Shown one piece after another: positions 2,341-62,304 of a stretch of DNA of 64,000 nucleotides. Position numbers and translations under genes: made by a program. Where the stretch lies: positions 44,459 to 108,458 of the forward strand of contig JBGSRC010000008.1 in assembly GCA_041737745.1 (NCBI GenBank), given 5' to 3'. The stretch is from Candidatus Caenarcanales bacterium. Lineage in GTDB: Bacteria; Cyanobacteriota; Vampirovibrionia; Caenarcaniphilales; Caenarcanaceae. The notes under the pieces are model-generated. The model did no database searches. It saw only the letters and a list, made by a program, of their open reading frames with translations, and was not told the DNA's origin. Positions within the stretch are counted from its first letter, which is position 1. Each line of letters starts with the position of its first letter.

Positions 2341-2450
2341 CGCTACCCCTCTCAAACTCCCCCTAAATGTGGATTGAAATTACTTTGGAGGGCTCTTTGG
2401 ACTTATTGCTTTTCTTCAAAGTCAATGGGGGGTGGGGGCGACAGCCCCCA
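2341..2450. repeat. GC-rich palindromic REP/MITE-like repeat cluster ('CTCAAACTCCCCC', 'ATGGGGGGTGGGGGCGACAGCCCCCAT')
   Basis: The motif is shared with more than 12 other intergenic sites in the window. Confidence 0.6.
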
Positions 2451-2495
2451 TTAAATAAACTCTTTTGAGCTACAGTGAAAAGCTAAATAAAAAAA

Positions 2496-3254
2496 CTAAC
2501 CTTTGCTAGCGTGAAACCGCAAACGGACATAATCAGCAAAATAACGCGAATCTTTCTGCAGTTTACCCGCCATCTTCCCGACAGCACTCTCAATAATTCC
2601 CTCATGTTGATGCATAGGAATACTCTCAAAAAACGGAATCCCTAAAACCCGAATCCAAATCCGAAAATCTTCCAGCCCACTCAAAAGATGTGTTGGCCGC
2701 TCAAAAAAGAAACATTGATTCACCCGAAAACCGCATTTTTCGAGAAGCAAAGCATACTCCCCAACAGAAGGAAAAAAGAAAACCTCTTCTCGTTTTCGAG
2801 CCAAAAAGCCAGCCTCTTTGATCGCTTCCACCATGCAGTCTAGGATTGTCGCAACGTTTCCACGACCTCCCATCTCAGCTATAAAGCGCCCTCCAGGCTT
2901 GAGGTTACTATATATCTGATTTAGGGCCTGCTCTTGATCGGTCACAAAATGCATAGTGGCGTTGGAGAGAAAAGCATCGGCCGGTTTCATCAGATCGAAG
3001 TTTCTTAGATCAGCTACCAAAAACTCGCTTTTAGGGTATTTTTCTCTGGCTCTTGCGATCATGCTCTCTGAGCTGTCTAGGCCTAGGACATTGGCGCCAC
3101 TTTTCTCGATTTCATGGCAGAGATCGCCTGTTCCACAGCCTAGATCGACTATATATTCGCCAGTGTGTGGGGCGAGCATGGTGATTAGCTCACGGCCATA
3201 GTCTGAGACGTATTTTAGGGAGGTGTCATAGAGGTGTGCGTCTAGTCTAGACAT
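2496..3254 (-). CDS. Class I SAM-dependent methyltransferase (trans-aconitate methyltransferase Tam-like)
   Basis: Motif I 'VDLGCGTGDL', acidic motif II 'VLGLDSSESM', and Tam-like length (252 aa). Confidence 0.65.
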   Translation of the reverse strand: MSRLDAHLYDTSLKYVSDYGRELITMLAPHTGEYIVDLGCGTGDLCHEIEKSGANVLGLDSSESMIARAREKYPKSEFLVADLRNFDLMKPADAFLSNATMHFVTDQEQALNQIYSNLKPGGRFIAEMGGRGNVATILDCMVEAIKEAGFLARKREEVFFFPSVGEYALLLEKCGFRVNQCFFFERPTHLLSGLEDFRIWIRVLGIPFFESIPMHQHEGIIESAVGKMAGKLQKDSRYFADYVRLRFHASKG

Positions 3255-3352
3255 GGCTTGTTGCGCTCCTAGGTTTTAATTATAAAAAAATTCTAGCAAT
3301 TGAGGCCCTTAAATTAAGCTACTAAGGCGGCAAGTCCTATAATTAGAGAACT

Positions 3353-4534
3353 ATGTTCGAAGAAAAACAGTTTTTGATGATCCCCGGTCCCACTCCAGTA
3401 CCGGAAAAAGCCCTCCTAGCCCTAGCAAAAGCCCCAATGCCCCACCGGAGCAAAGAATTTTCGGAAATCTTGCTGCGCTGTACCCACAACCTAAAAGAAA
3501 TTGCCCAAACAAAAGTTGCTTCACCGCTCATCTACGCCGCCTGCGGCACGGGAGGAATGGAATGCACACTAGTGAATGTGATGAATGTCGGCGATCCGGT
3601 ACTCGCCTGCGTGAACGGAGTCTTTGGGAAAAGGTGGGCCGATATGGCCGAAAGCTTCGGTGCTGATGTCACAAGACTAAATTATGCTCCCGGTCAAGCA
3701 ATCAACGTCGATCAGTTCAAAGAAGCGCTCAGTCAGAAAAAATATCGCCTTGTGCTAGTCACTTTCTCCGAGACCTCTACCGGTGTCGCCAATCCCGTCC
3801 AAGAACTGGCCAAGATTGTTCGTGAGCAGAGCGAAGCGCTCTTTTGCCTCGACGCTATCACTGGCCTAGCTGCCATTCCGATGATGATGGACGAGTGGGG
3901 AGTGGATGTAGTCATCTCTGGCAGCCAAAAGGGCTTTATGATCCCACCTGGTCTTACTTTTAGTTGGGCTAGCGAGAAGGCTTTGCGTTTTCATGGCGAA
4001 TCGAAATTTCCGCGTTTTTATTGGGATTGGACTAAAGCCTTCAAGGCGCTCAGCCAAGATACTACCGCTTTCACCCCAAATGTCTCACTAGTCTGTGCCC
4101 TCGATCAGACTCTTCAGATGATGGTCAAAGAAGGAATGCCAAAAATATGGCTCAGACATAAGCGCCTCCGTGAGACTGTCCGCCAATCGGTAAAGGCGAT
4201 GGGTTTGACTCTACTGGCTGGCGATGAAGATGCTAGTGCAGCTATTACTTCAGTTTTTCCTCCTGAGGGGGTCTCAGTGAAAGATCTTAGACGCAAGCTA
4301 AAAGAAGATTGGCAGATAGTGGTGGCTGATGGACAGCTGGAGCTTCAGGGCAAGATCTTTCGTCTTGGGCATCTCGGTTATGTTTCCGATCGTGATGGTT
4401 TGATGGCTTTGTCGGCTTTGGCGCAAGTACTTGAAGAGCTTGGGCATAAAACTGGGTCTGAGTGGCTGGAAGTTTATAAGAGCACTAAGGCTAAATATCT
4501 TCAGGAGTCTGAGCTATCCGCTGTCAGTATTTGA
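3353..4534 (+). CDS. Class V pyridoxal-phosphate aminotransferase (serine-pyruvate / alanine-glyoxylate aminotransferase family)
   Basis: 393 aa. PLP-lysine motif 'SGSQKGFMIPPG' and an 'ACGTGGMEC' N-terminal region typical of the AGXT family. Confidence 0.75.
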   Translation: MFEEKQFLMIPGPTPVPEKALLALAKAPMPHRSKEFSEILLRCTHNLKEIAQTKVASPLIYAACGTGGMECTLVNVMNVGDPVLACVNGVFGKRWADMAESFGADVTRLNYAPGQAINVDQFKEALSQKKYRLVLVTFSETSTGVANPVQELAKIVREQSEALFCLDAITGLAAIPMMMDEWGVDVVISGSQKGFMIPPGLTFSWASEKALRFHGESKFPRFYWDWTKAFKALSQDTTAFTPNVSLVCALDQTLQMMVKEGMPKIWLRHKRLRETVRQSVKAMGLTLLAGDEDASAAITSVFPPEGVSVKDLRRKLKEDWQIVVADGQLELQGKIFRLGHLGYVSDRDGLMALSALAQVLEELGHKTGSEWLEVYKSTKAKYLQESELSAVSI

Positions 4535-4662
4535 GGTTTAATCACTGTAGATCAGGGTGGGTAAAGCAGCTGACTTAACCCATACCCCGCTAGATTTTAA
4601 GGAACAAGACAATGGACTAGAAATTTTTAGAGAGTTTTGGAGTTATTCAGTACTTCCTTAGC

Positions 4663-6016: not shown

Positions 6017-6472
6017 ATGAAATCAATTATGGATACTCAAATTCCGTGTATTCTCGATAATGGTGTAGTTTTTCACAAAAGAGACATCATTCGTGTGCTC
6101 CAGAGCCTCGATCAGGTTGAATATACCGAAGAGATCGATGGAAAAGAAATGCTCAGGCGGATCGGCTTTATCGTTGAGATTTTCGAAGACGAGCAGCAGG
6201 CGACGATTTTCTTCAATAGACGCATTCATATCAACGTCAGTTCTTTTGAGTATTTGAAGATCGAATATTTGACTGACATCTCTGAAGAGCCTCCGGACCC
6301 GAACAAGCCCGACTATAGAGTTGAGTTGGCTATGCCTGGAGCTCGTAAGATCATTTTGCGGCCTATGAGCGATCCTCTCGATAATCCGACTACTTTGATT
6401 GCTGAGGTAGAAGAGAGACGGCGGGCTGCTGTGCAGTGGGAAGAGGTTGTGGTTGCTGAGGATGACGACTGA
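6017..6472 (+). CDS. Hypothetical acidic protein
   Basis: 151-aa ORF in a gene-sized gap between flanking genes; no recognisable motif. Confidence 0.4.
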   Translation: MKSIMDTQIPCILDNGVVFHKRDIIRVLQSLDQVEYTEEIDGKEMLRRIGFIVEIFEDEQQATIFFNRRIHINVSSFEYLKIEYLTDISEEPPDPNKPDYRVELAMPGARKIILRPMSDPLDNPTTLIAEVEERRRAAVQWEEVVVAEDDD

Positions 6473-6475
6473 GGG

Positions 6476-6560
6476 CTAGCGCCCCCAAATCCCCTCTAAT
6501 GAAATCGAAAAGCCTAATCAAAGGGGGTTTGGGGGACGTCAGTCCCCCAAGATAAATAAC
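6476..6560. repeat. REP-like repeat ('CCCCCAAATCCCC...GGGGGTTTGGGGGACGTCAGTCCCCC')
   Basis: Inverted G/C tracts; member of the same dispersed family. Confidence 0.55.
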
Positions 6561-6625
6561 TTCCATAACCTCCAGTGCAAAAATCAAGAGCTAAGATCAA
6601 AGGATTAAGCTAAGCAAAAGAAAAA

Positions 6626-12380: not shown

Positions 12381-12555
12381 GCGAGCATTGAAAAAGACCA
12401 AAGCTCTTTAAAAATTTCTAGTCCAATGCTTTGTTTCTTCAAGTTCTAATGGGGTTTGGGGCATAGTTAGCCCCCTTTTTTGGAGTATTTAGCGTTCTAT
12501 CGAAAAGATTGGGCATAAAAGAAGCAGTAAGGGTTTCCCCTATTTTTTTTCTGCC

Positions 12556-13221: not shown

Positions 13222-13261
13222 GAAGTCTTGGTTTTGTTTTTACTGTAGGTTAGGGAAGTTT

Positions 13262-13300
13262 TTGATTATGAGGGGTCTTCGCCCCCTCAAACTCCCCCTT
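13262..13300. repeat. REP/MITE-like repeat end ('GAGGGGTCTTCGCCCCCTCAAACTCCCCC')
   Basis: Hairpin plus the family core CCCCCTCAAACTCCCC. Confidence 0.6.
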
Positions 13301-13462
13301 GAAGTTGAATGAAGAAAATTAACTCTACCAATTAATAAGGGGAGCTAGATGGGCTTCCTGTCTATCGCTAGCTGGTCGTTAGTCTATTGCTAAGCAAACC
13401 CGCAAAATAAAAAAGGAGGACACAAATCCTCCTCCCTGAAAAAAATATTTTGCTCAAACTTC

Positions 13463-26295: not shown

Positions 26296-26400
26296 TCCAC
26301 AAATTAAGGGGGAATGGGGCACAGCCCCATGAAAAAAAAGGATCTTCCCCTCCCTCAGGGAGGGGATAGAGGGGTGGGTGTACGAATCAATTAAGCCCAT
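26296..26400. repeat. REP-like repeat cluster ('ATGGGGCACAGCCCCAT', 'CCCCTCCCTCAGGGAGGGG') directly after korA
   Basis: The palindrome CCCCTCCCTCAGGGAGGGG recurs at ~62125 and, as variants, at 39140 and 57750. Confidence 0.55.
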
Positions 26401-28824: not shown

Positions 28825-28869
28825 TGAGCTTCATTCTAGCTTTTGTAATCTTGAAACTTACTTGAGGTT

Positions 28870-28915
28870 AGGGAAATATATTCCATGGGACTTGCGTCCC
28901 CAAACCCCTCTCGGC
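28870..28915. repeat. REP-like hairpin 'GGGACTTGCGTCCCCAAACCCCTC'
   Basis: Same unit as 38962..38983 (GGGGACGAAGTCCCCAAACCCCTG) and 62150..62175 (GGGGACTTCTTCCCCAAACCCCTA). Confidence 0.6.
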
Positions 28916-28980
28916 CGGAAGGGAAAGTCAAAAAGCTCAAAAGAAAGAGAATAGATTTACGTTTTAACATGGGTCAAAGC

Positions 28981-31652: not shown

Positions 31653-31859
31653 ATTTGCGGGGTGTGATTGCTTTGGGAAACGCCTTATGTCTTCAAATCA
31701 TAGCGGGGTTTGGGGTGAAGATCCTTCGATGTTTCACTGCTGAAAGCGGCTGCTTAGCAAGAGTCTAGCTAGTCCCCCATACAAAACTGATTCTCATAAC
31801 CACAAATGCAAGCCTCAGCCTTGTAAGAAGCTAGAATGTCAAGAATCATCAATCACTAA

Positions 31860-43318: not shown

Positions 43319-44392
43319 TTGTTTACTTCTGGCTTTGAGTCCATTAGAGATTTGATTTTGGGTAGGAGCGCTGGGAGTTTTGAGGAGCTTGCTTTGTCGC
43401 TTTTTGCTTATCAGTCATCTCAGAACCTCAGCTATGCTAGATATATTCAAGCGGCTGGACTGGAGAGCTTCAAGCCGCAGCGCTGGTCTGAAATTCCCCT
43501 TATGCGAGCTGATTCATTTAAGCGACTCAGGCATTATTGCTCAGTTGAAGAGCCTGTGCTCTGTTTTCGCTCTAGTGGCACGACTGATTCGATCCGCAGC
43601 GAGCATCATTTGAGCGCTCAAGAACTTGAGTTGTATGAGTTGTCGCTTTGGGCAAGTTTTAGTGAAGCTTTTCCCCTTGTTTCCACCAATGCCCCTGTTC
43701 AGGTCTTCTTTCTTTCAGAGCCCTATACGGAGCGTTTAGATTCTTCGCTTTTCTATATGTTCGAGTGTATCCGGGGGCGTCTAAACCAACCCGAGAGCGC
43801 TTATTTATTGCAGTCAGGAAGCTTTGATCTGGAGCCGCTCAGGGGGGCTATCAAGCTGGGAGATAAGCCCATTCTCTTGCTGGGGACAGCCTATGCGTTC
43901 GCTGAGCTGCTTGAAAAGAGCAACGAGCCTTTGAGTTTGCCGGCTGGATCGGCTCTAATGGAGACTGGAGGTTTCAAAACTAGCAAAGTGACTCTTAGCA
44001 AGCAAGAGCTCTATGCCAGTCTCTCTGAGTGCTTTGCTTTGCCAGAGAGTTCTATAGTCGGCCAATACGGGATGAGTGAGCTTGGTAGCCAATATTATGA
44101 TCAGTCTTATGTGCTGGGTGAGCCTAAAGCCAGAATGAAGCTAGCCAAGCCTTGGTGTCAGTTTCGGATTTTACGTCCTACTGATCTGAGTCAAGACTGC
44201 ACCGAGGGAGAGCTTGGGCTGATTGCGCATTATGATCTGACAAATTGTGATTCTTTGGCTTTCATTCTTAGTCAAGATCTGGGCAGACAGGTTGCTGGTG
44301 GTTTTGAGTTGATCGGTCGGGCTCCTAAGGCTGTCTTGCAGGGTTGTTCTCTGGATAGTGAGGCCTATCTGACCGCTAGGAGGGAGCTTTGA
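43319..44392 (+). CDS. Putative adenylate-forming acyl-protein/acyl-CoA synthetase-like protein (LuxE/PaaK-like)
   Basis: 357 aa. 'FRSSGTTDS' resembles the acyl-adenylate P-loop-like motif of the LuxE/PaaK family. Weak assignment. Its stop overlaps the GT2 start by 4 nt. Confidence 0.4.
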   Translation: MFTSGFESIRDLILGRSAGSFEELALSLFAYQSSQNLSYARYIQAAGLESFKPQRWSEIPLMRADSFKRLRHYCSVEEPVLCFRSSGTTDSIRSEHHLSAQELELYELSLWASFSEAFPLVSTNAPVQVFFLSEPYTERLDSSLFYMFECIRGRLNQPESAYLLQSGSFDLEPLRGAIKLGDKPILLLGTAYAFAELLEKSNEPLSLPAGSALMETGGFKTSKVTLSKQELYASLSECFALPESSIVGQYGMSELGSQYYDQSYVLGEPKARMKLAKPWCQFRILRPTDLSQDCTEGELGLIAHYDLTNCDSLAFILSQDLGRQVAGGFELIGRAPKAVLQGCSLDSEAYLTARREL

Positions 44393-45531
44393 TTTTAATT
44401 TTTTTATATTTCTTCGCTGCGCTCAGCTTAGCCATCTGGATCTTCTATTTGCTACGGATCCGCGAGTCTATTCGCCAAGACATTCCCCTCACTAGTTCTG
44501 AGATCATTGGCCAGCCGAGCCTCTCAATCTTGATCCCGGCCTATAACGAAGAGCAAAATATCTCTACTATCCTTAGTAGCTGCCTATTTACGCTCAAAGA
44601 CTACAAGTATCTCTACGAAATCTTAGTTCTAGACGACAATTCGCAAGATAAGACCACTGCTGAACTGGAAAGTTTCAAGCGAGCTCATCCCAGCCTCAAT
44701 TTGAAGCATTGGGTGGGTACTGAAACCCCTGCTGGTTGGACGGGGAAAAATTGGGCTTGCGCTCAGCTTTCTCAGAGAGCAACTGGTGATTATTTATTGT
44801 TTCTGGACGCCGATGTGCGTTTGCTGGCCGGAGGATTGGAGCTTGCTCTCTCTTATGCTCAAAAAAATCAAAGTGCTCTTTTGAGTGGCACACCGGATTT
44901 GCTCTGCGAGCATTGGTCAGAGATCTTGGTGCAGCCTTTGCTCGTTGCTGGGGCTAGGTCTCATTTTAATTTTGAGCGAGTGAACGATCCCTTGGCAGAA
45001 GAGGCTTTTGCTTCTGGGCCTTTTATGCTTTTTGAGCGAGGGGCATATTTTGCTTCTGGCGGTCATGAGGCTGTGGCTGCAGAGATTGTGGAAGATGTTT
45101 CTCTTTCCAAGCTTTTCAAGTCTTTGGGTCTTCGAGTGGCTTTGGTGGATGCCAGCAAGGTTTATCAGCTCCAGATGTACAGTTCTTTTGGGCAGCTTTG
45201 GGAGGGGTGGACTAAAAACGTTCATTTGGCTTTTGGGCGAAAATTTGAGGTTACGTCGCTTTATGCTTTGGTTCAGCTTTTCACCAATCTGGCTCCTTTT
45301 GGTCTTTTGGTTGGGGCTGTGGTGTTTAAGAGTTGGGTTGTTTTTGGGGTGAGTTTATTTTGTTTTTGGGCGCAGGGATATATTTTTGGTCTTGTTGCGC
45401 CGAGGTATTGGTTTTATTTTTGGGTGAGTCCTATTGGTTCTTTGATTGTTTTTGCTATTTTTCTGGGATCTATTTGGAAGACTGAGACGGGCTTGGGTTG
45501 GACATGGCGAGGCAGGCAGTTGAGGTTGTAG
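44389..45531 (+). CDS. Family 2 glycosyltransferase with C-terminal membrane domain
   Basis: GT-A fold motifs 'LSILIPAYNEE', 'VLDDNSQDKT', 'FLDADV' (DxD), and multiple C-terminal TM helices; 380 aa. Confidence 0.75.
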   Translation: MILIFLYFFAALSLAIWIFYLLRIRESIRQDIPLTSSEIIGQPSLSILIPAYNEEQNISTILSSCLFTLKDYKYLYEILVLDDNSQDKTTAELESFKRAHPSLNLKHWVGTETPAGWTGKNWACAQLSQRATGDYLLFLDADVRLLAGGLELALSYAQKNQSALLSGTPDLLCEHWSEILVQPLLVAGARSHFNFERVNDPLAEEAFASGPFMLFERGAYFASGGHEAVAAEIVEDVSLSKLFKSLGLRVALVDASKVYQLQMYSSFGQLWEGWTKNVHLAFGRKFEVTSLYALVQLFTNLAPFGLLVGAVVFKSWVVFGVSLFCFWAQGYIFGLVAPRYWFYFWVSPIGSLIVFAIFLGSIWKTETGLGWTWRGRQLRL

Positions 45532-45815
45532 AGGTTTTAGACTCATCCCCCCAGCCCCTTAAACCCCTCAGAGCAAGGACATTACTGAGACGGGCTTGGG
45601 TTGGACATGGCGTGGTAGGCAGTTAAGGAAAGACTGAATAACTCAATCAAGGGGGAGTTTGAGGGGGCCTTAGGTCCCCTCATAACAAATACTTCAAGTA
45701 ACCTCAAGTGACTCCAAACATTCCCTTAAGAACCAAACCAGAGTGAGACGGGCTCAAGTTGGACATGGCGAGGTAGACAATTGAGGTTCTAGAGGTTTTT
45801 ACTCATCCCCCAGCC
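45481..45815 (+). repeat. Three copies of the GT2 gene 3'-terminal segment (45481..45560 including the stop, 45583..45625, 45741..45815) interleaved with a REP/MITE unit (45645..45695)
   Basis: 'ACTGAGACGGGCTTGGGTTGGACATGGCGAGGCAGGCAGTTGAGGTT(G/C)TAGAGGTTTT(T)ACTCATCCCCC' is repeated with ~85-90% identity. Confidence 0.7.
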
Positions 45816-45928
45816 CTCTTCTCAAGAAGGGGGAGTAAAGAAAAGATTCTAAGAGGTTGAGGTTCTGAAAATTACTCAACTCAAGACCTTAAACGTGTAT
45901 ATGATTGTTAGTAAAAGTATTTTGACTT

Positions 45929-50435: not shown

Positions 50436-50630
50436 ATGAAAATCCAAGTGATAGTTCACGAAGCGGAAGAAGGGGGCTATTGGGCAGAAGTGCCCTCATT
50501 GCCTGGCTGCGTCACTGAAGGCGACACAATGGAAGAGCTTCAAGAGATGCTCAAAGAAGCGATAACTCTTTATCTCAGACCTCTTCCCGAATCTCATCCA
50601 ACGGGCAAAATCCTAGAACTAACGCTTTGA
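50436..50630 (+). CDS. hicB: HicB-family antitoxin (second copy, minimal)
   Basis: 'VIVHEAEEGGYWAEVPSLPGCVTEGDTMEE'; about 65% identical to the 45929 copy; 64 aa. ATGA overlap with the downstream hicA. Confidence 0.75.
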   Translation: MKIQVIVHEAEEGGYWAEVPSLPGCVTEGDTMEELQEMLKEAITLYLRPLPESHPTGKILELTL

Positions 50631-50830
50631 AACAAATCTCCGGCAAGAAGCTAGCAAAAATCTTGGAGCACTTAGGCTGGAAACTTGTTGACGTTGAAGG
50701 CAGCCATTTCAAATACAGAAAAGGCGAGCGCACGGCTATTATCCCCATCCACGCTAATCGCGATCTTCGCATTGGCACATTAAAATCAATAATGAAAGCA
50801 GCAGGCTTGACTGAAGCAGACTTGCTTTGA
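50627..50830 (+). CDS. hicA: HicA-family mRNA interferase toxin (second copy)
   Basis: 'KKLAKILEHLGWKLVDVEGSHFKYRKG'; paralog of 46123..46326; 67 aa. Confidence 0.8.
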   Translation: MKQISGKKLAKILEHLGWKLVDVEGSHFKYRKGERTAIIPIHANRDLRIGTLKSIMKAAGLTEADLL

Positions 50831-50855
50831 TGAATAAAAAAGAGCTCTAAAAAAC

Positions 50856-50927
50856 TGGGCCATGCGGGACTCGAACCTGCAACCAACTGATTAAGAGTCA
50901 GCTGCTCTACCATTGAGCTAATGACCC
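50856..50927 (-). tRNA. tRNA-Lys (anticodon CTT); CCA not encoded
   Basis: Minus-strand cloverleaf: acceptor 'gggtcat'/'atggccc', D-arm 'agctcaatggtagagc', anticodon stem-loop 'gctga-ctCTTaa-tcagt', T-arm 'ggttcgagtcc'. Confidence 0.8.
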
Positions 50928-51108
50928 ACTCAAGGCTAGTGAGTATAGCCCAAAATTTAGAAACTGTGTCCGACAAAAAATGAAAGCTTGAGCTGCTTGC
51001 CTGCAGCATTAAAGATTCTTTACTAGTTTAGACCGGTCAGGCATCACCTTAATATTCTCTTCACATGATAAATTTATTAATAGAGAAATTTATTAATTTT
51101 AGATTAAG

Positions 51109-52455: not shown

Positions 52456-52488
52456 AGTGGCTTGTTGCTTTGTATTTTCTATATATAT

Positions 52489-52620
52489 AAGGGGAGTTTG
52501 AGGGGCAAAGCCCCTTTTGCGAAAGTTTTTTACCACAATCGATCTTAGGGTTTTGAGCTCACTTAAGGTTACTTGAAATATTTACCATGAGGGGACCTAC
52601 GGCCCCCTCAAACTCCCCCT
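52489..52620. mobile_element. Complete ~130-bp MITE-like element with terminal inverted repeats GGGGAGTTTGAGGGG / CCCCTCAAACTCCCC
   Basis: Left end 'AAGGGGAGTTTGAGGGGCAAAGCCCC' and right end 'GAGGGGACCTACGGCCCCCTCAAACTCCCCCT'. The internal segment 'CACTTAAGGTT..ATGAGGGG' is shared with the copies at ~56960 and ~57570. Confidence 0.6.
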
Positions 52621-52831
52621 GACAATTTGAAACGTAAGCCTAAAGTGATCTCAAAGTTTGGTTTTATTGCTGGAGGTTATGGGTTTTTCAGTGTTTCTTT
52701 AAGGTTAGAGAAATTCATCTAAACGGGGCTCCGCCCACAAGCACCTTTTCTTAGAGAGGGGAAAACAAGGCAAGATTTCAGTATTTTAAAGCAAGAGCTT
52801 GATTAACATTAGTGAGCTCAAAATCATCTCC

Positions 52832-53925: not shown

Positions 53926-53955
53926 TTAAGGGGAGTTTGAGGGGCTAGAGTAAAT
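53926..53955. repeat. Solo MITE end 'AAGGGGAGTTTGAGGGGCTAGAG'
   Basis: Same terminal motif as the 52489 element. Confidence 0.5.
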
Positions 53956-53964
53956 CACCCTAAC

Positions 53965-54516
53965 CTACAACGAGCGCTCAGTCACCACCAAGTCCACATG
54001 TTTATCCCACAAATCTAAAGGCAAATCTGCTCTGAGAAGAGCCTCGGGTATAACTCCAACAGTCTTTACTGCGCTAAGGCCAGCAAGCTCATCAATGAGT
54101 CTATCGTAAAAACCTAAGCCCTGACCTAGTCTGGCTCCTGAGGGTGTGAATAATAGTCCCGGTACCAAACAACAATTCAGCTCAGCTAGATTGAGATTCA
54201 GGGGCAAATATTGAGCTTTTAGTTCAGACCAAGTAAGCTCCCGAAAGCTTGGAGCAAAATGATTTTGAATGAGATGAACTTGTGCTCCCGCTGCGAGCAG
54301 CTTTTGATGGAGATCGCTTAGATCAAGCTCGCGGGGTCTGGCCTGATAGCTCAAGACTACTAGCTCTGAGTGGAAGTTTACTTTGCAGATCTCAAGAAGC
54401 TCAACAAAAAGTTTGCGGGAAATCAAAACCGATAGCTCTCCCCAAAACAAAAGAGAGGATAGACTTCTCGCCTCCTCTCTCAGTGTTTGTTTTTTTCTTG
54501 GAATATTAGCAATCAA
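53965..54516 (-). CDS. 5-formyltetrahydrofolate cyclo-ligase
   Basis: C-terminal 'GARLGQGLGFYDRL' (GxGxGYYDR motif), N-terminal Arg-rich folate-binding region; 183 aa. Confidence 0.8.
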   Translation of the reverse strand: MIANIPRKKQTLREEARSLSSLLFWGELSVLISRKLFVELLEICKVNFHSELVVLSYQARPRELDLSDLHQKLLAAGAQVHLIQNHFAPSFRELTWSELKAQYLPLNLNLAELNCCLVPGLLFTPSGARLGQGLGFYDRLIDELAGLSAVKTVGVIPEALLRADLPLDLWDKHVDLVVTERSL

Positions 54517-56930: not shown

Positions 56931-57023
56931 TGGTTCTCTTGTCTTTCAGTTAGCGAAGCGATTTATGAACACTTAAGGTTTTTGGAAGTAATAGCTATGA
57001 GGGGCAAACTAAGCTTGCATCAG
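56931..57023. repeat. MITE-family copy (direct repeat A) upstream of miaB
   Basis: 'TGGTTCTCTTGTCTTTCAGTTAGCGAAGCGATTTATGAACACTTAAGGTTTTTGGAAGTAATAGCTATGAGGGG' is about 90% identical to 57537..57612. Confidence 0.65.
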
Positions 57024-57247
57024 TTATTTCGAAGCATTGCTCTGAAGTCTTTGTAAGATTTTATGTTCTGCTCTTCTCTAAGGGGGGAGTTTGTGGGATC
57101 GCCGAAGGCCGAGTGCACAAAGTGCCGAGCTTTAGCCTTCATAGCCCGACTTGACACTGGAATAGACAGGGTTACTAGCAAGGTCTTTAAAGCTTTGCTT
57201 CAATTTATTGCCAAGCTGGCTTTTCCCGCCTTTAGATATAAGTCTAT

Positions 57248-57536: not shown

Positions 57537-57635
57537 GGTTCTCTTATCCTCCAGTTAGCGAAGCGATTAACAACACACTTAAGGTTTTTGGAAGTAATAG
57601 CTATGAGGGACCTGCGGCTACTCAAACTCCCCGCT
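57537..57635. repeat. MITE-family copy (direct repeat B) ending in '...ATGAGGGACCTGCGGCTACTCAAACTCCCC'
   Basis: Matches 56931..57023 and the right half of the 52489 element. Confidence 0.65.
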
Positions 57636-57675
57636 TCTTAAGATCCATTGTGGTTTTAGAGGGTGACTTCCCAAA

Positions 57676-57704: not shown

Positions 57705-57920
57705 AAACGCTTCTATTGCAAATCGAAAAGTAAGTTTGTGCCCACCCCCCTGCCCCTCCGGTGGAGGGGAGTTAATTTCTATGGGGGCTCTGCGTATCGG
57801 CCTAGCTAGGCACTCTTGCTACGCAGCCCCAAACCCCCTTCAAAAACAAGGGAAAACTAAAAATTTGCAAAAGACGTCAAAGTAATATCTCGATCCAGAT
57901 GATGCAAACTAAGTTTGCAA

Positions 57921-58453: not shown

Positions 58454-59023
58454 ATGGAAAATACCAATAGTCCACCCCCTCAAGTTATCCCCCCAAGCGA
58501 TAATCAAGTCCCCCAAGCAGATCAAGCAGTCTCTTGGAAAGAAGCAACCAGTATCTTAAATGAAACTATAGCCCACAGCCCAGCCCTAGAGCGCGTAGCG
58601 CAAGAACAAGGCTATCACTGCTTTGAAGAAGCTTATTTTCAGCATTACGGAAATTATCTGCAAGCGCTGAAAGCTTCTTCCTCAGACCCGCAAGCGAGAG
58701 CGATCACCGGTCAGCTGGAAGGGCTCTGGTTCGCCGGAAAATACGCTGATGCTCTGCAAGTCGCTTCTCGTTACTTTGGGAAAGTGGCTCAAACAAGCCA
58801 AGCTCCTCAAAGCCTGCAGCCCAGACACCAAAGCGGCAATGAGGGATATTTGGGGGCTTATCCCTTTCGCTCTCGCCAAGAGTACCAACAAGCTTCCCGT
58901 TCGCAAGACCCTAGAATGCGCGAAATGGCCCAAAAAGCCTGGAGAACATGGCTAACTACCTATCGCCGCGATTCTAATAATCCTCAAACCCCCTACCCAA
59001 TGGAGACTAACCCCAATGCCTAA
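58454..59023 (+). CDS. Hypothetical Pro/Gln-rich protein (candidate scaffold/cargo of the downstream HK97-fold protein)
   Basis: 189 aa, disordered Pro-rich N-terminus, Gln/Ala-rich. Overlaps the next gene by 8 nt (translational coupling). Confidence 0.4.
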   Translation: MENTNSPPPQVIPPSDNQVPQADQAVSWKEATSILNETIAHSPALERVAQEQGYHCFEEAYFQHYGNYLQALKASSSDPQARAITGQLEGLWFAGKYADALQVASRYFGKVAQTSQAPQSLQPRHQSGNEGYLGAYPFRSRQEYQQASRSQDPRMREMAQKAWRTWLTTYRRDSNNPQTPYPMETNPNA

Positions 59024-59936
59024 TATCACTCGCTCATCGTTGAGCGCTCAGTTTTCTAATCCTGTTGCCGATAAGATCCTCGAATATCTTTACGATTATC
59101 TGATCTTTGCGCCGCAATTTTTTGATGCCGAACATGGCAACCTGATCTCACAAGATCCGATGGACAAACGCCCGAAGATCTTCGATGCCTCAAAGTATGT
59201 CAAACGGGCTTATTCTCGTGGCGAGACGATCAAAATCCCCAACATACCGCGCCTCTATGCCCAAGATAAACTAGCAGACACCGAGATCACCGATCAGTCG
59301 CTAAACGTTAGCAGCGTCTCGCTCACTATCACCACCCACAAGTATGTCAGCGTGGTTTTGGAAGATTCGGCCGAGGCTTTCGACAATACAGCTATGGTCG
59401 AAGAGATGGCTAAGCGCGAAGCTCGTGCGCTTGCCGAAGCCTTTGAAGATTCGGTGATCGCTACTTTCGGTGACTTTGCCACAGTAAATGGAGGCGGAGT
59501 TGGTGATGTTTTGAGTTTCGATGATTTTGCGGTTTGGAATAGGACTTTCTTCAAGAAAGGCGTCAATCTCGATCATTCACCGGCTTGGGCTATTCTCACT
59601 CCCGAGCAGTATTCTGTATTGGCCACCACTCGTGATGAGTTCACTGTGGCTGGCGAAAAAGGGCTTGGCACCTTCAATTCTGGCCGAATCATAGAGACTC
59701 CCCATGGGATTTATGCGCTTCGTTCGAATCGTCTCAGTTCATCTGGTGGGTCTGCTACTGGTCTATGCTTTACTGAGAATGCTTTGATGTGTGCTTTTGC
59801 GATCATGCCTCGTTTCGTTGAGACTCGCGATGATCGGAAGGTTGGGATTCGTTTTTATGCTGACTTTATGGCTGGAGTGGCTAAGCTGAGAGACGAAGAA
59901 GGTATTAGGCTGAACTTTGACGCTGATAGCGTTTGA
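59016..59936 (+). CDS. HK97-fold major capsid protein / encapsulin-like shell protein
   Basis: By eye it is collinear with T. maritima encapsulin and T7 gp10 over the E-loop/P-domain region. The matches are 'LEDSAEAFDNTAMVEEMAKREARALAEAFEDSVIATFG' to '...LDLWELDNLE..VAEFEDEVIFRG', and 'SGRIIETPHGIYAL' to 'GGKIITTPRIEDAL'. 306 aa. Confidence 0.5.
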   Translation: MPNITRSSLSAQFSNPVADKILEYLYDYLIFAPQFFDAEHGNLISQDPMDKRPKIFDASKYVKRAYSRGETIKIPNIPRLYAQDKLADTEITDQSLNVSSVSLTITTHKYVSVVLEDSAEAFDNTAMVEEMAKREARALAEAFEDSVIATFGDFATVNGGGVGDVLSFDDFAVWNRTFFKKGVNLDHSPAWAILTPEQYSVLATTRDEFTVAGEKGLGTFNSGRIIETPHGIYALRSNRLSSSGGSATGLCFTENALMCAFAIMPRFVETRDDRKVGIRFYADFMAGVAKLRDEEGIRLNFDADSV

Positions 59937-60089
59937 TGTTGATGCAATTACTTGATTGGTTTTATTAAGCATAGGAGCCTCTTAAAGAATTTACGGGGCC
60001 AAAGCCCCAAGCCGCCTTTCTTAATTTGAAGAACAACCCACTTTTTGAAGTAACTAAAATCCCCAACTAAAAAAAAGAGAAAAAAATAA

Positions 60090-60893: not shown

Positions 60894-61257
60894 AATAGCA
60901 AACATGATTTTGTGCAATGGCACAGTAGATCTCACCAATGGCAGTAGTGGCGTGACTTTTAAGGTCGATCGGGCGGGAGATCTGATACTGGGCGAATGTT
61001 TTGTCGAACTTTTGACCGGAGTAGTAGGCACAACTACTGCCCCTATTGTCGGCATTTCTATAGCTGGTGCTGAGCAGGGTTCAGTTACTGCCCCCAATGC
61101 TAGACCGGCTGGCGATTTGCTGCGTTTTGCGCCCACTACACAAAGAGGGCCTGCTATCAGGCTTTCAGCCGGTGAGACAGTTCGAGTCTTCACCAAGACC
61201 GCTGCTGCTGGGGGCGTTCCTGCTGGCAGTTTGCGCGTGTTTCTTGCCTTGAAGTGA
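60886..61257 (+). CDS. Hypothetical small Gly/Ala/Thr-rich beta-type protein (possible phage decoration/fiber-like)
   Basis: 123 aa; overlaps the upstream gene by 8 nt. Composition typical of small beta-sandwich phage structural proteins. Confidence 0.35.
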   Translation: MSEIANMILCNGTVDLTNGSSGVTFKVDRAGDLILGECFVELLTGVVGTTTAPIVGISIAGAEQGSVTAPNARPAGDLLRFAPTTQRGPAIRLSAGETVRVFTKTAAAGGVPAGSLRVFLALK

Positions 61258-61269
61258 TTTCTTAAAACT

Positions 61270-61956
61270 ATGCCATCACAAATACTTGAAATAGTGAATC
61301 AAGCCCTAGCGAGGCTAGGGGAAACGCCTCTGAGTGCAGCCGAATATGACTTTGGTTTGGAGCGACATCAGCTCATTTTGCGCGAGGCCGTTCGTGAGTT
61401 TTGGGAGAAGACCATCAATCTAGCCAAAGACGATCTGAAATATTATTTCGAGCTGAGCACTGTCACTGGGCAGGGTCTTTACGCTCTTGGTTTTGAGCCT
61501 CTTGAGCTTGCTAGCACTCAGCTTTTTCTGCTCGATCCAAGCGCAGGGCAAGATAGACTTTTAGGCCGAGTCTTAGAAAAAGACTTGCTGGTGGATACTG
61601 GGGGAGATCTAGCAAATCTTCCTTCCGGCAAGCCTAGAGATTGGTTTGTGGCTCATACCAGTTTGGCCGGTGAGAGTAGGCTCGGTTTTGCTCCAATTCC
61701 GGATAATATTTACACGATTCGGATCTATAGGCAGCTGGCTCCGGCGGCTCTTAGTGCTAGCTCTGTCTTGATGGCCAATCGTTTGGCTCTAAGTGCTATG
61801 CGTCATTATTTGGAGTGGGTTTTGGTTCGTGAGGAGGGATTTTCTTCTGCTCCAGATTTTGAGCGTCGTTTTGAGGAGGCTTGGCATGAGTACATTGGGC
61901 GGAGCGCATCTTCAGAAAAGCGTAATCTTTTTCAATGGCCTTATCAGCAGAGCTAG
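61270..61956 (+). CDS. Hypothetical protein with N-terminus resembling podovirus tail tubular protein A (T7 gp11-like adaptor)
   Basis: 'IVNQALARLGETPLSAAEYD' versus T7 gp11 'VNDILASIGEPPVSTLEGD' (recalled from memory); 228 aa. Confidence 0.35.
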   Translation: MPSQILEIVNQALARLGETPLSAAEYDFGLERHQLILREAVREFWEKTINLAKDDLKYYFELSTVTGQGLYALGFEPLELASTQLFLLDPSAGQDRLLGRVLEKDLLVDTGGDLANLPSGKPRDWFVAHTSLAGESRLGFAPIPDNIYTIRIYRQLAPAALSASSVLMANRLALSAMRHYLEWVLVREEGFSSAPDFERRFEEAWHEYIGRSASSEKRNLFQWPYQQS

Positions 61957-62100
61957 AGTCCCCAAACCCCTATTCAATTTGAGCGACTTAACAATATATA
62001 GCGTGGCTTTTTAGAGCTGTTCAGCGTTTCATGAAGAACAGGTGGAGTTTGAGGGCGCTAGCCCTCAAGGAAATAAACTTCACTAACCGCAAGTGAGCCC
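61957..62100. repeat. 143-bp direct repeat, copy 1 (starts right after the stop of 61270..61956)
   Basis: About 93% identical to 62162..62304; contains 'GTCCCCAAACCCC' and 'GGTGGAGTTTGAGGGCGCTAGCCCTCAAGG'. Confidence 0.75.
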
Positions 62101-62161
62101 TAAAATCCCACCCCCAGCCCCTCCCTCAGGGAGGGGAGAAACTTTTTACTATGGGGACTTC

Positions 62162-62304
62162 TTCCCCAAACCCCTATTCAATTTGAGCGACTTATCAATA
62201 TATAGCGTGGCTTTTTAGAGTTATTCAGCGATTCATGAAGAACAGGTGGAGTTTGAGGGCGCTAGCCCTTAAGGAAATAAACTTCACTAACCGACAGTGT
62301 AAGC
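62162..62304. repeat. 143-bp direct repeat, copy 2 (ends at the stop of the recombinase-like gene)
   Basis: See copy 1. The 61-bp spacer carries the palindrome CCCCTCCCTCAGGGAGGGG. Confidence 0.75.

What the first reader, a model, noticed from the sequence alone, without database searches (positions are those of the whole stretch)
2341..62304. Family of GC-rich palindromic REP/MITE-like repeats populating most intergenic spacers
Recurrent modules include GGGGAGTTTGAGGGG and its complement CCCCTCAAACTCCCC, found at 2349, 13279, 45651, 52491/52605, 53928, 57083, 57621, 62044 and 62244. GGGGAC-N3-5-GTCCCCAAACCCC is found at 28877, 38962, 62152 and as a variant at 6536. CCCCTCCCTCAGGGAGGGG is found at 26350, 62125, 39140 and 57750. 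Longer elements carry terminal inverted repeats (52489..52620). The family is mosaic, abundant at more than 15 copies in 64 kb, and occasionally enters coding sequence. This mosaic, abundant pattern is typical of actively spreading REP/BIME or MITE systems, which often depend on a REP-associated tyrosine transposase (RAYT) or IS200-like transposase encoded elsewhere.
Basis: seen in the sequence. Interest (0 to 1): 0.5.

Follow-up and report, generated by a model that had tools for sequence, protein, structure and literature searches.

The report
Triplex-type hairpin repeats in intergenic spacers
The window, from an uncultured relative of cyanobacteria, is peppered with a real family of short G/C-rich hairpin repeats whose extra mirror-image tail would let the single strand fold into a three-stranded helix; this kind of bacterial repeat is already known (E. 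coli BoxC/TMECO), so it is a good new example rather than a new phenomenon.

Summary
All ten GGGGAGTTTGAGGGG-type sites, the CCCCAAACCCC sites and the CCCCTCCCTCAGGGAGGGG sites exist and are far above chance. They resolve into two modules. Type A is a ~58-nt unit: 5' box CACTnnAGGTTA, an A/T spacer, a G-rich hairpin, AAA, then a C-tail. There are 9 full and about 15 partial copies. Type B is CCCCTCCC-loop-GGGAGGGG-linker-GGGGTGGG, in four clear copies. In both, the tail mirrors a hairpin arm, the design of an intrastrand triplex (classes I/III and II/IV). Variant families in other genomes keep this mirror rule. That matches the published PIT/BoxC/TMECO intrastrand triplex motifs (Holder 2015). 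The host is a Melainabacteria (Caenarcaniphilales-like) MAG, and its nearest relatives lack the family. Elements sit mainly in 3' spacers, in either orientation and often as inverted pairs. A three-module cluster is read in frame inside a CRY-DASH gene. The REP-like reading is supported. RAYT dependence is untested: no transposase lies in the window, and the whole genome could not be searched. 'Actively spreading' is not supported, since median copy identity is 62%, and no target-site duplications were seen. In passing, the core TGAGGGG-loop-CCCCTCAAACTCCCC recurs exactly across many phyla, on a rolling-circle plasmid and in two microviruses. Verdict: a new member of a known kind.

The parts
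2348..2362 (+). Type A, truncated 3' part (CCTCTCAAACTCCCC); it forms an inverted pair with the 2424-2450 copy
   Evidence: (1 mismatch)
2424..2450 (-). Type A short copy: GGGGGC-TGTC-GCCCCC-A-CCCCCC (hairpin plus mirror C-tail)
   Evidence: hairpin -8.7 kcal/mol, z = -3.3
6470..6497 (+). Type A short copy: GGGC-TAGC-GCCC-CCAAATCCCC; it starts in the stop codon of ORF 6017..6472
6519..6592 (-). Type A full-length copy (GGGGGAC-TGAC-GTCCCCC-AAA-CCCCC). The Logan contig L246 ends inside it.
   Evidence: (E = 9e-14)
12437..12475 (-). Type A short copy: GGGGGC-TAACTAT-GCCCC-AAA-CCCC
   Evidence: (D6/D7)
13236..13306 (+). Type A full-length copy (GAGGGG-TCTTCGC-CCCCTC-AAA-CTCCCC), in a convergent spacer
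   Evidence: (E = 1e-15)
26305..26330 (-). Type A short copy: GGGGC-TGT-GCCCC-ATT-CCCCC
   Evidence: z = -2.95
26347..26381 (+). Type B (class II, TMECO-like): CCCCTCCC-TCA-GGGAGGGG-ATAGA-GGGGTGGG
28852..28916 (+). Type A full-length copy (GGGAC-TTGC-GTCCC-CAAA-CCCC), antisense between two minus-strand genes
   Evidence: E = 2e-12
31691..31716 (-). Type A truncated copy (CCCCAAACCCC only), in a divergent spacer
   Evidence: (D6/D7)
38937..39001 (+). Type A full-length copy inside the CRY-DASH ORF 38258..39772(-); translated antisense as ...NQGFGDFVPIENNPQTYS...
   Evidence: (E = 1e-11)
39085..39125 (-). Type A short copy (GGGGC-TTC-GCCCC-AAA-CCCT) inside the CRY-DASH ORF
39134..39166 (+). Type B (CCCATCCC-TTA-GGGAGGGG-GTA-GGGGGTGGG) inside the CRY-DASH ORF; translated as PFPPPTPSLRDGE
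45646..45722 (-). Type A full-length copy, 87-90% identical to the 52552 copy. The Logan contig L001 ends inside it, at 45657.
   Evidence: I1; E = 5e-15
45796..45842 (+). Degenerate type B-like module (CATCCCCCAG-CCCTCTTCT-CAAG-AAGGGGGAG)
   Evidence: (D8); weak
52484..52520 (-).
52552..52624 (+). Type A full-length copy; right arm of the inverted pair
   Evidence: (E = 2e-14)
52690..52752 (+). Degenerate type A copy
   Evidence: D3; E = 0.1
53926..53990 (-). Type A copy lacking the 5' hairpin arm; it overlaps the 3' end of ORF 53965..54516
   Evidence: E = 6e-6
56969..57005 (+). Type A 5' half only, cut after ATGAGGGG. It is part of a ~73-nt segment that recurs 605 nt downstream.
   Evidence: D5, D20; E = 2e-6
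57084..57098 (-). Isolated inverted 3' fragment of type A (the + strand reads GGGGAGTTTGTGGGA)
57568..57638 (+). Type A full-length copy with a decayed hairpin
   Evidence: E = 5e-13; no stable fold
57741..57771 (-). Type B: CCCCTCC-ACC-GGAGGGG-CA-GGGGGGTGGG
57772..57845 (+). Type A variant with a long hairpin (GGGGGCTCTGCGTA...TACGCAGCCCC) followed by AAA-CCCCC
61957..61972 (+). Type A tail fragment (GTCCCCAAACCCCT), directly after the stop of ORF 61270..61956. It is the start of a 137-nt unit that recurs 204 nt downstream.
   Evidence: (D1)
62039..62108 (-). Type A full-length copy (GAGGGC-TAGC-GCCCTC-AAA-CTCCAC)
   Evidence: E = 5e-15; z = -2.6
62104..62137 (-). Type B: CCCCTCCC-TGA-GGGAGGGG-CTG-GGGGTGGG
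62138..62175 (+). Type A copy without the 5' box (GGGGA-CTTCT-TCCCC-AAA-CCCC)
   Evidence: (D3)
62243..62312 (-). Type A full-length copy that overlaps the stop codon of ORF 62305..63165. The Logan contig L245 ends inside it.
   Evidence: (E = 2e-14)

Best explanation
This is a lineage-specific family of short, non-coding, REP-like interspersed repeats of the 'intrastrand triplex motif' kind (PIT elements, E. coli BoxC/TMECO). It sits in the chromosome of an uncultured Melainabacteria (Caenarcaniphilales-like) bacterium.

Anatomy, shown directly. Every module is a G/C hairpin plus a third segment that mirrors one arm. In type A, the purine arm GAGGGG pairs with CCCCTC, and after AAA comes CTCCCC. 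On the complementary strand this reads GGGGAG-TTT-GAGGGG-loop-CCCCTC. In type B, CCCCTCCC pairs with GGGAGGGG, followed by GGGGTGGG.

Mechanism, inferred. When the DNA is single-stranded (lagging-strand template, repair or transfer intermediates), the G-rich strand can fold twice into a purine-motif triple helix (G*G-C, A*A-T, T*A-T). The C-rich strand, or an RNA copy, can form only the weaker, acid-favoured pyrimidine motif. Such folds obstruct polymerases and favour slippage and recombination. That would account for the local duplications, truncated copies and mosaic clusters.

Population behaviour, inferred. The elements behave as selfish or neutral passengers. They accumulate where they do least harm (3' spacers, a protein linker), in either orientation. 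What disperses them is unknown. A trans-acting enzyme that reads ssDNA hairpins, encoded outside the window, is the most plausible agent, but this is not shown.
For: 1. Over-representation: (0 of 100 shuffles reach the observed counts).
2. Defined unit: alignments A1/A3 and the profile search give 9 full and about 7 partial type A copies. Six more hits lie in the 8.4 kb left of the window.
3. Hairpins are predicted in all intact copies, with the tail left unpaired.
4. Mirror rule. In 1.7 Mb of window plus fetched loci, hairpins with a purine arm carry the mirror tail far more often than the same-composition direct tail: GAGGGG 153 against 3, although those loci were selected for this motif. 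Variant families not selected for also keep the rule: GAGAGGGG/CTCTCCCC, GGGGAGG/CCCCTCC, GGGGGAA/CCCCCTT, GAGAGGGAC/CTCTCCCTG.
5. All four type B copies align antiparallel as 7 G*G-C plus 1 T*A-T triplets.
6. Published precedent: TMECO/BoxC (CCCTCNCCC-N3-6-GGGNGAGGG-N3-GGGNGAGGG). Its triplex was shown by CD/NMR as ssDNA, G/C-rich motifs are abundant in Enterobacteria and Cyanobacteria, and the motif is linked to local genomic instability (PMC4666352).
7. Insertion behaviour: a ~70-residue insert absent from 7 CRY-DASH homologues consists of three modules read in frame. Copies also overlap stop codons at 6470, 53965 and 62305.
8. Local rearrangements occur at copies (D1, D5, D20), and all three Logan contigs end inside a copy.
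9. There is no orientation bias (12 + against 11 -; sense roughly equals antisense), which is as reported for BoxC.
10. Lineage-specific: absent from 20-kb loci of four relatives with 64-68% ThrRS identity, and no full-length copy in the metagenome scan.
Against: Triplex folding is only a sequence inference here. For TMECO, in vivo DMS footprinting did not detect a stable triplex (PMC4666352).

Several type A copies have triplex stems of only 4-6 nt, at or below the ITxF minimum. A generic triplex scan is only moderately enriched (k = 5: 9 loci against 1.8 in shuffles, maximum 6).

Most mirror-tail counts come from loci I selected with the GAGGGG pattern. The independent variants number only about four families.

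The conserved 5' box (CACTnnAGGTTA) is unexplained by the triplex model. It shows no covariation with the 3' end.

No dispersal mechanism has been demonstrated.
Confidence: 0.7

Rival explanations
1. Classical REP/REPIN system: the hairpins are substrates of a REP-associated tyrosine transposase (RAYT, Y1 HUH family) encoded elsewhere in the genome. It would excise and insert them, singly or as inverted pairs, via ssDNA at the replication fork.
For: The elements are short, extragenic, imperfect palindromes in high copy number. They form inverted pairs 25-72 nt apart (2348/2424, 6473/6519, 52484/52552, 61957/62039, 62138/62243) and a BIME-like cluster at L246:7813-8022. They are biased to 3' ends: 4 of 7 convergent against 2 of 10 divergent spacers (census). 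The same core motif lies beside HUH enzymes on a rolling-circle plasmid and in microviruses, so HUH proteins may read such hairpins.
Against: No Y1_Tnp/RAYT is present among the window ORFs. phmmer with E. coli RayT found nothing in about 1 Mb of window plus loci containing the motif (a weak negative). There is no conserved GTAG/CGTC head at the foot of the palindrome; GTAG occurs in only 3 of 10 5' boxes, about 25 nt away. Copies are only about 62% identical. BoxC/TMECO, the closest known relative, has no known RAYT. RAYT recognition does not explain the mirror tail.
Confidence: 0.2
2. RNA-level elements: hairpins at gene 3' ends that end transcription or protect mRNA 3' ends from exonucleases, as E. 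coli REPs can. The C-tail might form a pyrimidine-motif RNA triplex that reinforces the block.
For: The elements prefer co-directional and convergent spacers and sit directly after stop codons (6470, 61957, 62305). The hairpins are stable. In rumen Bacteroidales the same core lies 50-60 nt downstream of tRNA/tmRNA genes on the same strand, and in dsDNA phage contigs it precedes an SD sequence.
Against: No U-tract follows the hairpin in either orientation. Orientation relative to the upstream gene is random (about half antisense). One cluster lies inside an ORF. There is no Rfam match. Runs of four or five C+ triplets are disfavoured at neutral pH, and the purine motif cannot form in RNA (PMC4666352). 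PIT/BoxC elements showed no promoter or terminator activity.
Confidence: 0.12
3. MITEs derived from a DDE-type insertion sequence: terminal inverted repeats mobilised in trans by a parent IS, inserting with target-site duplications.
For: The 132-nt unit 52484-52624 and the 137-nt units at 61959 and 62163 have inverted ends. The family is mosaic and abundant.
Against: No target-site duplications flank any full copy (my inspection of the flanks). The basic 58-nt unit is asymmetric. The spacing and content between inverted copies differ at every site. The window contains no IS or transposase.
Confidence: 0.05
4. Chance or compositional artefact: G-runs and C-runs that recur simply because the intergenic DNA is biased.
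For: A loose triplex scan with 4-nt stems is barely above shuffles (22 against 13.4).
Against: Specific 15-19-mers recur 5-10 times against 0-0.13 expected. The 58-nt profile hits reach E = 1e-15.
Confidence: 0.01

Closest known systems
E. coli BoxC = PIT element = TMECO intrastrand triplex motif (Hoyne/Maher 2000; Holder et al. 2015, PMC4666352)
   Same: Both are short, G/C-rich interspersed intergenic repeats built from three consecutive blocks: a pyrimidine arm, a purine arm and a mirror G-block. Window type B (CCCCTCCC-TCA-GGGAGGGG-CTG-GGGGTGGG) has the same block order (class II), similar loop lengths, and even the same T*A-T 'mismatch' as TMECO (CCCTCGCCC-CTTT-GGGGAGAGGG-TTA-GGGTGAGGGG). 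Both occur in either orientation, sometimes as palindromic pairs, with no associated gene function and with local rearrangements.
   Different: The sequences differ and there is no detectable homology. The dominant window module (type A) has the opposite block order (class I/III), shorter triplex stems (4-6 nt) and an extra conserved 5' box plus A/T spacer, which makes a 58-nt unit. The host is a Melainabacteria MAG, not a proteobacterium. Density is far higher: about 29 modules in 64 kb, against 23 TMECO in the 4.6-Mb MG1655 genome.
REP / BIME / REPIN elements with RAYT transposases (enterobacteria, pseudomonads)
   Same: Both are extragenic imperfect palindromes that form inverted pairs and mosaic clusters. 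Both are biased to gene 3' ends, are lineage-specific and reach high copy number.
   Different: There is no GTAG/CGTC head and no RAYT was found in the sequence available. The mirror-repeat tail is not a REP feature. Copies are more diverged than typical REPIN populations.
[quoted passage not shown]
   Same: The host belongs to the sister lineage of the photosynthetic cyanobacteria. Chamaesiphon and Synechococcales loci carry double units of the same design: CTGGGGG-loop-CCCCCAG-A-CCCCC followed by GAGGGG-loop-CCCCTC-AAA-CTCCCC. A microbial-mat contig carries both window subtypes in tandem.
   Different: The 58-nt unit with its 5' box was not found in any of them. The published survey gives counts, not this motif.
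Rickettsia palindromic elements (RPE) (my own knowledge)
   Same: Both are palindromic repeats that insert in frame into protein-coding genes and are translated as extra peptide segments in tolerant loops. Here, about 70 residues are added to the interdomain linker of CRY-DASH.
   Different: RPEs are 100-150 nt long, A/T-rich and unrelated in sequence. Only one in-frame case is seen here.

Membership tests
Intrastrand triplex motif (PIT / BoxC / TMECO; ITxF classes I-IV) | Three consecutive blocks on one strand: a purine block, its Watson-Crick pyrimidine complement, and a third block that is the mirror of one of them, in an allowed order | tested here: met
   Type A reads GAGGGG-loop-CCCCTC-AAA-CTCCCC (class III; class I on the other strand). 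Type B reads CCCCTCCC-TCA-GGGAGGGG-CTG-GGGGTGGG (class II/IV)..
Intrastrand triplex motif (PIT / BoxC / TMECO; ITxF classes I-IV) | ITxF size limits: stems of 6-15 nt, loops of 1-6 nt, at most one mismatch if the stem is at least 7 nt | tested here: inconclusive
   Type B meets them (8-nt stems, loops of 2-5 nt). Type A GAGGGG copies have 6-nt purine stems, but the hairpin 'loop' is 7-9 nt if only purines are counted. GGGG/CCCC copies have 4-5-nt stems, below the limit.
Intrastrand triplex motif (PIT / BoxC / TMECO; ITxF classes I-IV) | The third block covaries with the stem according to triplex rules rather than being a direct or inverted repeat | tested here: met
   Mirror tails far outnumber direct tails: GAGGGG 153 against 3 (loci selected for this motif). 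Unselected variants also comply: GAGAGGGG/CTCTCCCC, GGGGAGG/CCCCTCC, GGGGGAA/CCCCCTT. Independent families are few (about 4).
Intrastrand triplex motif (PIT / BoxC / TMECO; ITxF classes I-IV) | The isolated strand actually folds into a triplex (CD, NMR, melting) | not testable with these tools
   ViennaRNA models only Watson-Crick pairs and leaves the tail single-stranded.
REP / REPIN - RAYT system | Short extragenic imperfect palindrome in many copies, singly, in inverted pairs or in clusters | tested here: met
REP / REPIN - RAYT system | Conserved tetranucleotide head (GTAG or CGTC) at the foot of the palindrome | tested here: not met
   The positions flanking the hairpin are (T)AT/CAT and AAAC. 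GTAG occurs only in 3 of 10 5' boxes, about 25 nt upstream (alignment A1).
REP / REPIN - RAYT system | A cognate RAYT (Y1 HUH transposase) gene in the same genome, usually flanked by the REPs | tested here: inconclusive
   None is present in the 64-kb window, and phmmer with E. coli RayT found nothing. The 8.4-kb left extension was checked only through the precomputed Pfam annotation of its called genes, which lists no transposase family. The rest of the genome (a 198-kb contig and others) could not be searched.
MITE (DDE-transposon derived) | Terminal inverted repeats flanked by target-site duplications | tested here: not met
   Some composite units have inverted ends, but no duplications flank any copy (flanks), and the 58-nt unit is asymmetric.
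MITE (DDE-transposon derived) | A parent autonomous IS with the same ends | tested here: inconclusive
   None is present in the window. The genome is not available.
Intrinsic (Rho-independent) terminator | G/C hairpin immediately followed by a U-tract on the transcribed strand | tested here: not met
   The hairpin is followed by AAACYCCCC on one strand and by an A-rich spacer on the other. The terminator scan picks up only type B fragments and other hairpins.
Known structured RNA family (Rfam 15) | Match to a curated covariance model | tested here: not met
   Only the two tRNAs match at gathering scores. Nothing else matches at E <= 1 in 45400-62400, and nothing matches at the motif in 18 foreign loci.

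The most novel reading that the evidence does not exclude
The exact core T-GAGGGG-(variable, covarying loop)-CCCCTC-A-AA-CTCCCC is not peculiar to this genome. Its G-rich strand lies on the coding strand of three replicons with an ssDNA stage: one Collinsella rolling-circle plasmid and two microviruses. That is the strand taken here, from general knowledge of these replicons, to be the packaged or displaced one. The most novel reading not excluded is that this triplex hairpin is a portable, horizontally spreading ssDNA signal. It might be a complementary-strand priming site or single-strand origin, or a recognition structure for HUH nucleases. The chromosomal 'REP-like' families, including the one in this window, would then be its fossils or domesticated copies.
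Probability: 0.1. Interest if true: 0.7.

Novelty: new member of a known kind. Interest (0 to 1): 0.4.

Why it matters
What bacterial intrastrand triplex repeats (BoxC/PIT/TMECO) do, and how they spread, has been open since 2000.

This window adds a very dense example: about one module per 2.2 kb, in a little-studied lineage (Melainabacteria). Both block orders occur side by side, and an in-frame insertion lies in a conserved enzyme.

In addition, the mirror-tail rule holds across several unrelated sequence variants. One exact core recurs across phyla and on ssDNA replicons. Together these give concrete oligonucleotides and replicons on which the triplex and ssDNA-signal ideas could be tested.

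For annotation, these repeats break short-read assemblies and add spurious residues to gene models.

Tried and rejected
1. HIP1 (GCGATCGC) is absent, so this is not a typical cyanobacterial repeat.
2. My first guess, that the host was a Chlamydiae (prompted by two Chlamydiales MAG hits), was rejected by the ThrRS homologues (Caenarcaniphilales/Melainabacteria).
3. Comparison of orthologous spacers was not possible. The nearest relatives are only 64-68% identical in ThrRS, share no synteny and lack the family.
4. The RAYT search (phmmer with E. coli RayT against 6196 ORFs of the window plus 125 fetched loci) returned nothing. This is a weak negative, because those loci are only 8 kb each.
5. 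The metagenome scan for the full unit (AGGTT-N28-38-CCCTCAAACTCCCC) gave 117 loci, but none matches the 5' half. Only the hairpin+tail is shared.
6. The sigma-70 promoter reading of the 5' box (TTGAGG-N17-TATGAG) failed: the promoter scan is not enriched and does not call the boxes.
7. Pairing of the 5' box with the tail occurs in 2 copies, but the box does not covary with the subfamily. It is not a conserved structure.
8. RNAalifold on the MAFFT alignment misaligned the hairpins and was uninformative.
9. A literature search for the motif as text found no relevant paper.
10. The Xer-like ORF beside the 62-kb cluster seems to lack the box I arginine and scores far below the family cut-offs. I did not pursue it as the mobilising enzyme.
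11. blastn-short could not extend the unit beyond about 60 nt.

Full report
**1. The observation**

The window is chromosomal DNA with 47% G+C and no HIP1 sites. It carries housekeeping genes: ClpB, aconitase, PEP carboxylase, ThrRS, HisRS, GuaA, MetK, a 2-oxoacid:ferredoxin oxidoreductase, UbiD and CRY-DASH.

- GGGGAGTTTGAGGGG or its complement occurs at 10 sites with at most 2 mismatches, against 0.13 expected.
- CCCCAAACCCC occurs 8 times exactly, against 0.62 expected for exact plus one-mismatch sites.
- The palindrome CCCCTCCCTCAGGGAGGGG occurs 3 times, plus one variant.

In every case, 0 of 100 dinucleotide shuffles reached the observed count.

**2. What the repeats are**

Aligning the contexts shows that the first two motif classes are the 3' ends of a single unit of about 58 nt, which I call type A (A1). 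It consists of a 5' box CACTnnAGGTTA(GGGAA), about 12 nt of A/T-rich spacer, (T)ATG, a G/C hairpin, AAA, and a C-run.
- A profile search finds 9 full-length copies (E from 1e-11 to 1e-15) and about 7 partial ones.
- Shorter copies keep only hairpin+AAA+C-run: 2424, 6470, 12437, 26305, 39085, 52484.
- The third motif class is a separate module, type B, with four clear copies.
- About 29 modules lie in the 64 kb. Six more hits lie in the 8.4 kb to the left of the window (L246).

From the spacer listing, the elements occupy 12-13 of 34 spacers of at least 40 nt. They occupy 11 of the 17 spacers longer than 120 nt. By spacer class, they are in 4 of 7 convergent, 6-7 of 17 co-directional and 2 of 10 divergent spacers. 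Their orientation is unbiased (12 on +, 11 on -), and about half are antisense to the upstream gene. They often form inverted pairs 25-72 nt apart.

**3.

In type A, the tail is the mirror image of the hairpin's 3' arm: GAGGGG-loop-CCCCTC-AAA-CTCCCC. In the other subfamily it is GGGG(AC)-loop-(GT)CCCC-AAA-CCCC.

A mirror repeat cannot be produced by copying either strand. A symmetric protein dimer cannot read it either. It is, however, exactly the layout of an intrastrand triple helix.
- On the C-rich strand, the tail runs parallel to the purine arm (C+*G-C, T*A-T; class III).
- On the G-rich strand, GGGGAG-TTT-GAGGGG-loop-CCCCTC is a purine-motif class I triplex (G*G-C, A*A-T).
- Type B reads CCCCTCCC-TCA-GGGAGGGG-CTG-GGGGTGGG in all four copies. 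Aligned antiparallel, the tail gives seven G*G-C triplets and one T*A-T triplet, with no mismatch.

I tested the rule on 1.7 Mb of sequence (the window plus all fetched loci).
- Hairpins with a non-symmetric purine arm carry the mirror tail far more often than the equally C-rich direct tail. For GAGGGG the count is 153 against 3, although those loci were selected with that motif.
- Variant families that I did not select for also obey the rule: GAGAGGGG..CCCCTCTC-AAA-CTCTCCCC, GGGGAGG..CCTCCCC-AAG-CCCCTCC, GGGGGAA..TTCCCCC-GGA-CCCCCT and GAGAGGGAC..GTCCCTCTC-GGG-CTCTCCCTG.
- Watson-Crick folding predicts the hairpin in every intact copy and leaves the tail free.

**4. This kind of element is already known**

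Hoyne and Maher (2000) and Holder et al. (2015, PMC4666352) described 'potential intrastrand triplex' elements.
- The E. coli BoxC repeat, renamed TMECO, is CCCTCNCCC-N3-6-GGGNGAGGG-N3-GGGNGAGGG (class II).
- It occurs 3610 times in 262 proteobacterial genomes.
- It forms a very stable triplex as isolated ssDNA (CD and NMR, Tm 70-82 °C).
- In vivo DMS footprinting did not detect the triplex.
- It has no promoter or terminator activity and shows no orientation or gene-function correlation.
- It is associated with elevated local rearrangement.
- G/C-rich motifs of this type are especially abundant in cyanobacteria.

Window type B is architecturally the same as TMECO. Type A has the reverse block order, with shorter stems and an added 5' box. 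The exact window motifs do not appear in that paper or its held supplements, nor anywhere else in the searchable literature.

**5. Host and distribution**

ThrRS is 64-68% identical to proteins labelled Candidatus Caenarcaniphilales or Melainabacteria.

The exact window proteins occur only on one NCBI contig of 197,985 nt and in the Logan assembly of SRR28170465.

Three Logan contigs are involved. One was compared base by base and is identical to window 31391-45657. All three end inside a repeat copy, at window positions 45657, 6549 and about 62240. That is what a multi-copy repeat does to a de Bruijn assembly.

Four relatives' ThrRS loci (about 20 kb each) lack the family and share no synteny with the window. 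A metagenome scan found no full-length unit elsewhere. The 58-nt unit is therefore lineage-specific.

**6. Evidence on mobility and age**

A cluster of three modules (type A at 38937-39001, short type A at 39085-39125, type B at 39134-39166) lies inside the CRY-DASH ORF. It accounts for a ~70-residue insertion in the interdomain linker that seven homologues lack. The reading frame and both domains are intact.

Other copies supply or overlap stop codons (6470, 53965, 62305).

Local duplications occur at copies. A 137-nt unit repeats 204 nt apart at 95% identity. A ~73-nt segment that includes half an element repeats 605 nt apart, next to an inverted 3' fragment.

Against recent activity, the full copies are 53-88% identical, with a median of 62%. 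No target-site duplications are visible.

No transposase of any kind is encoded in the window. A RayT phmmer search over the window and the loci fetched up to that point was empty.

The ORF next to the 62-kb cluster is a divergent Xer-like tyrosine recombinase. It appears to have lost the box I arginine and scores far below the family cut-offs. I do not regard it as the mobilising enzyme.

**7. Most likely mechanism**

Shown:
- the three-block anatomy;
- its covariation with the stem;
- the spacer and orientation statistics;
- the in-frame insertion;
- the local duplications.

Inferred:
- Whenever a copy becomes single-stranded, the G-rich strand folds into a purine-motif triplex. This is the pH-independent form proven for TMECO. 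RNA cannot adopt it (PMC4666352), which fits the lack of any transcriptional orientation bias.
- The fold stalls polymerases and promotes slippage and recombination, generating the mosaic clusters.
- The elements persist as neutral or selfish passengers where insertions are tolerated.
- Long-range dispersal needs an agent that is not identified. A RAYT-like HUH enzyme is possible (about 0.2) but untested.

**8. A side observation that may matter more**

My own estimate of the chance expectation is about 2 hits for uniform composition and under 15 even at 70% G+C.

The hits span Rhodobacteraceae, Acetobacteraceae, Collinsella, rumen Bacteroidales, Chloroflexia (in tandem arrays), Chamaesiphon and Synechococcales, Desulfovibrio, Nitrospirae, Dehalococcoidia, Paceibacterota and Chlamydiales. 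The core is almost always preceded by T. The loops vary, and the stem extensions covary. It also occurs in 23 IMG/VR contigs.

Contexts differ between hosts:
- In Bacteroidales, the core lies 50-60 nt downstream of tRNA or tmRNA genes on the same strand.
- In dsDNA phage contigs, it is followed by a segment that pairs with the tail, and then by an SD sequence.
- On a 3.1-kb Collinsella rolling-circle plasmid (Mob_Pre + Rep_OBD), the G-rich version is on the coding strand.
- In two ~4.65-kb contigs that I read as microviruses (capsid-like ORF plus a Rep with an RPHYH motif, judged by eye from the translations), the G-rich version is likewise on the coding strand. From general knowledge, that is the strand which exists as ssDNA in these replicons.

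Three cases are only anecdotal. They do suggest a testable idea: the triplex hairpin may be an ssDNA signal, either a priming site or an HUH recognition structure. I give this about 10%.

**9. Verdict**

The finding is real and correctly located. The REP-like reading is broadly right. The more precise classification is intrastrand triplex motif repeats (the BoxC/TMECO kind): a new, unusually dense member, in a Melainabacteria genome. The RAYT, MITE and 'actively spreading' parts of the interpretation are unsupported or untested. Interest is moderate.

Noticed in passing
The loops vary and the stem extensions covary. The contexts are lineage-specific: a second hairpin in Acetobacteraceae, GGGATATTT..AGAAGAAG in Rhodobacteraceae, and tandem arrays of about 50 or about 68 nt period in a Chloroflexia MAG (L093, L049).
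   Followed up: partly
L050 (Collinsella aerofaciens, 3181-nt contig), L247 and L250 (IMG/VR, ~4.65 kb): The same core lies on a small rolling-circle plasmid (Mob_Pre + Rep_OBD), 130 nt upstream of mob. It also lies in intergenic regions of two contigs read as microviruses. In all three, the G-rich (purine-motif) version is on the coding strand, which I take from general knowledge to be the strand that exists as ssDNA.
   Followed up: partly
L005, L007, L057, L080 (rumen Bacteroidales MAGs): The core motif lies 50-60 nt downstream of tRNA-Pro, tRNA-Ala or tmRNA genes on the same strand, as if it marked the end of those transcripts.
   Followed up: no
window 38258-39772 (-): The CRY-DASH photolyase homologue carries a ~70-residue insertion in its interdomain linker that is made entirely of repeat modules. 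The frame and both domains are intact, so repeat DNA is being translated.
   Followed up: yes
window 45479-45799: There are three copies (75-87% identical) of a separate 60-nt repeat (ACTGAGACGGGCTTGGGTTGGACATGGCGAGGCAGGCAGTTGAGGTT...) within 320 nt. The first copy encodes the last ~16 residues of the glycosyltransferase ORF 44389..45531.
   Followed up: no
window 45929-46326 and 50436-50573: A HicB-like antitoxin and HicA toxin pair sits in the repeat-rich 808-nt spacer. A second HicB-like 5' fragment (76% DNA identity) lies 4.5 kb away, next to tRNA-Lys. The minus-strand ORF 50575..51009 that covers the tRNA is probably spurious.
   Followed up: partly
window 58454-63165: A phage-like gene cluster lies here: Phage_capsid_4 (59016..59936), SU10 adaptor (61270..61956) and, on the opposite strand, a divergent Xer-like tyrosine recombinase (62305..63165) that seems to lack the box I arginine. 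A 1.5-kb non-coding, repeat-rich region (56889-58453) precedes it. This may be a prophage or satellite remnant.
   Followed up: partly
window 57675-57710 and 57918-57955: Two copies of a canonical bidirectional terminator-like hairpin (AAAAAACCCTCGCAGAGGAGGGCTTTT) lie here. They are unrelated to the triplex repeats.
   Followed up: no
window 4596-4660 vs 12378-12442; also 45623-45651 vs 62211-62239: A further, A/T-richer repeat module (..TTTTTAGAG..GTTATTCAG..) lies next to several type A copies. It suggests that the mobile or duplicated unit is sometimes longer than 58 nt.
   Followed up: no
L001, L245, L246 (Logan SRR28170465 contigs): All three short-read contigs that cover the window end inside a repeat copy, at window positions 45657, about 62240 and 6549. 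The family fragments assemblies of this genome.
   Followed up: yes
window 62104-62137, 26355-26381, 39143-39166: The G-rich strand of type B carries four G-runs (GGGAGGGGCTGGGGGTGGG). It also fits the G-quadruplex consensus, which is an alternative fold to the triplex.
   Followed up: no
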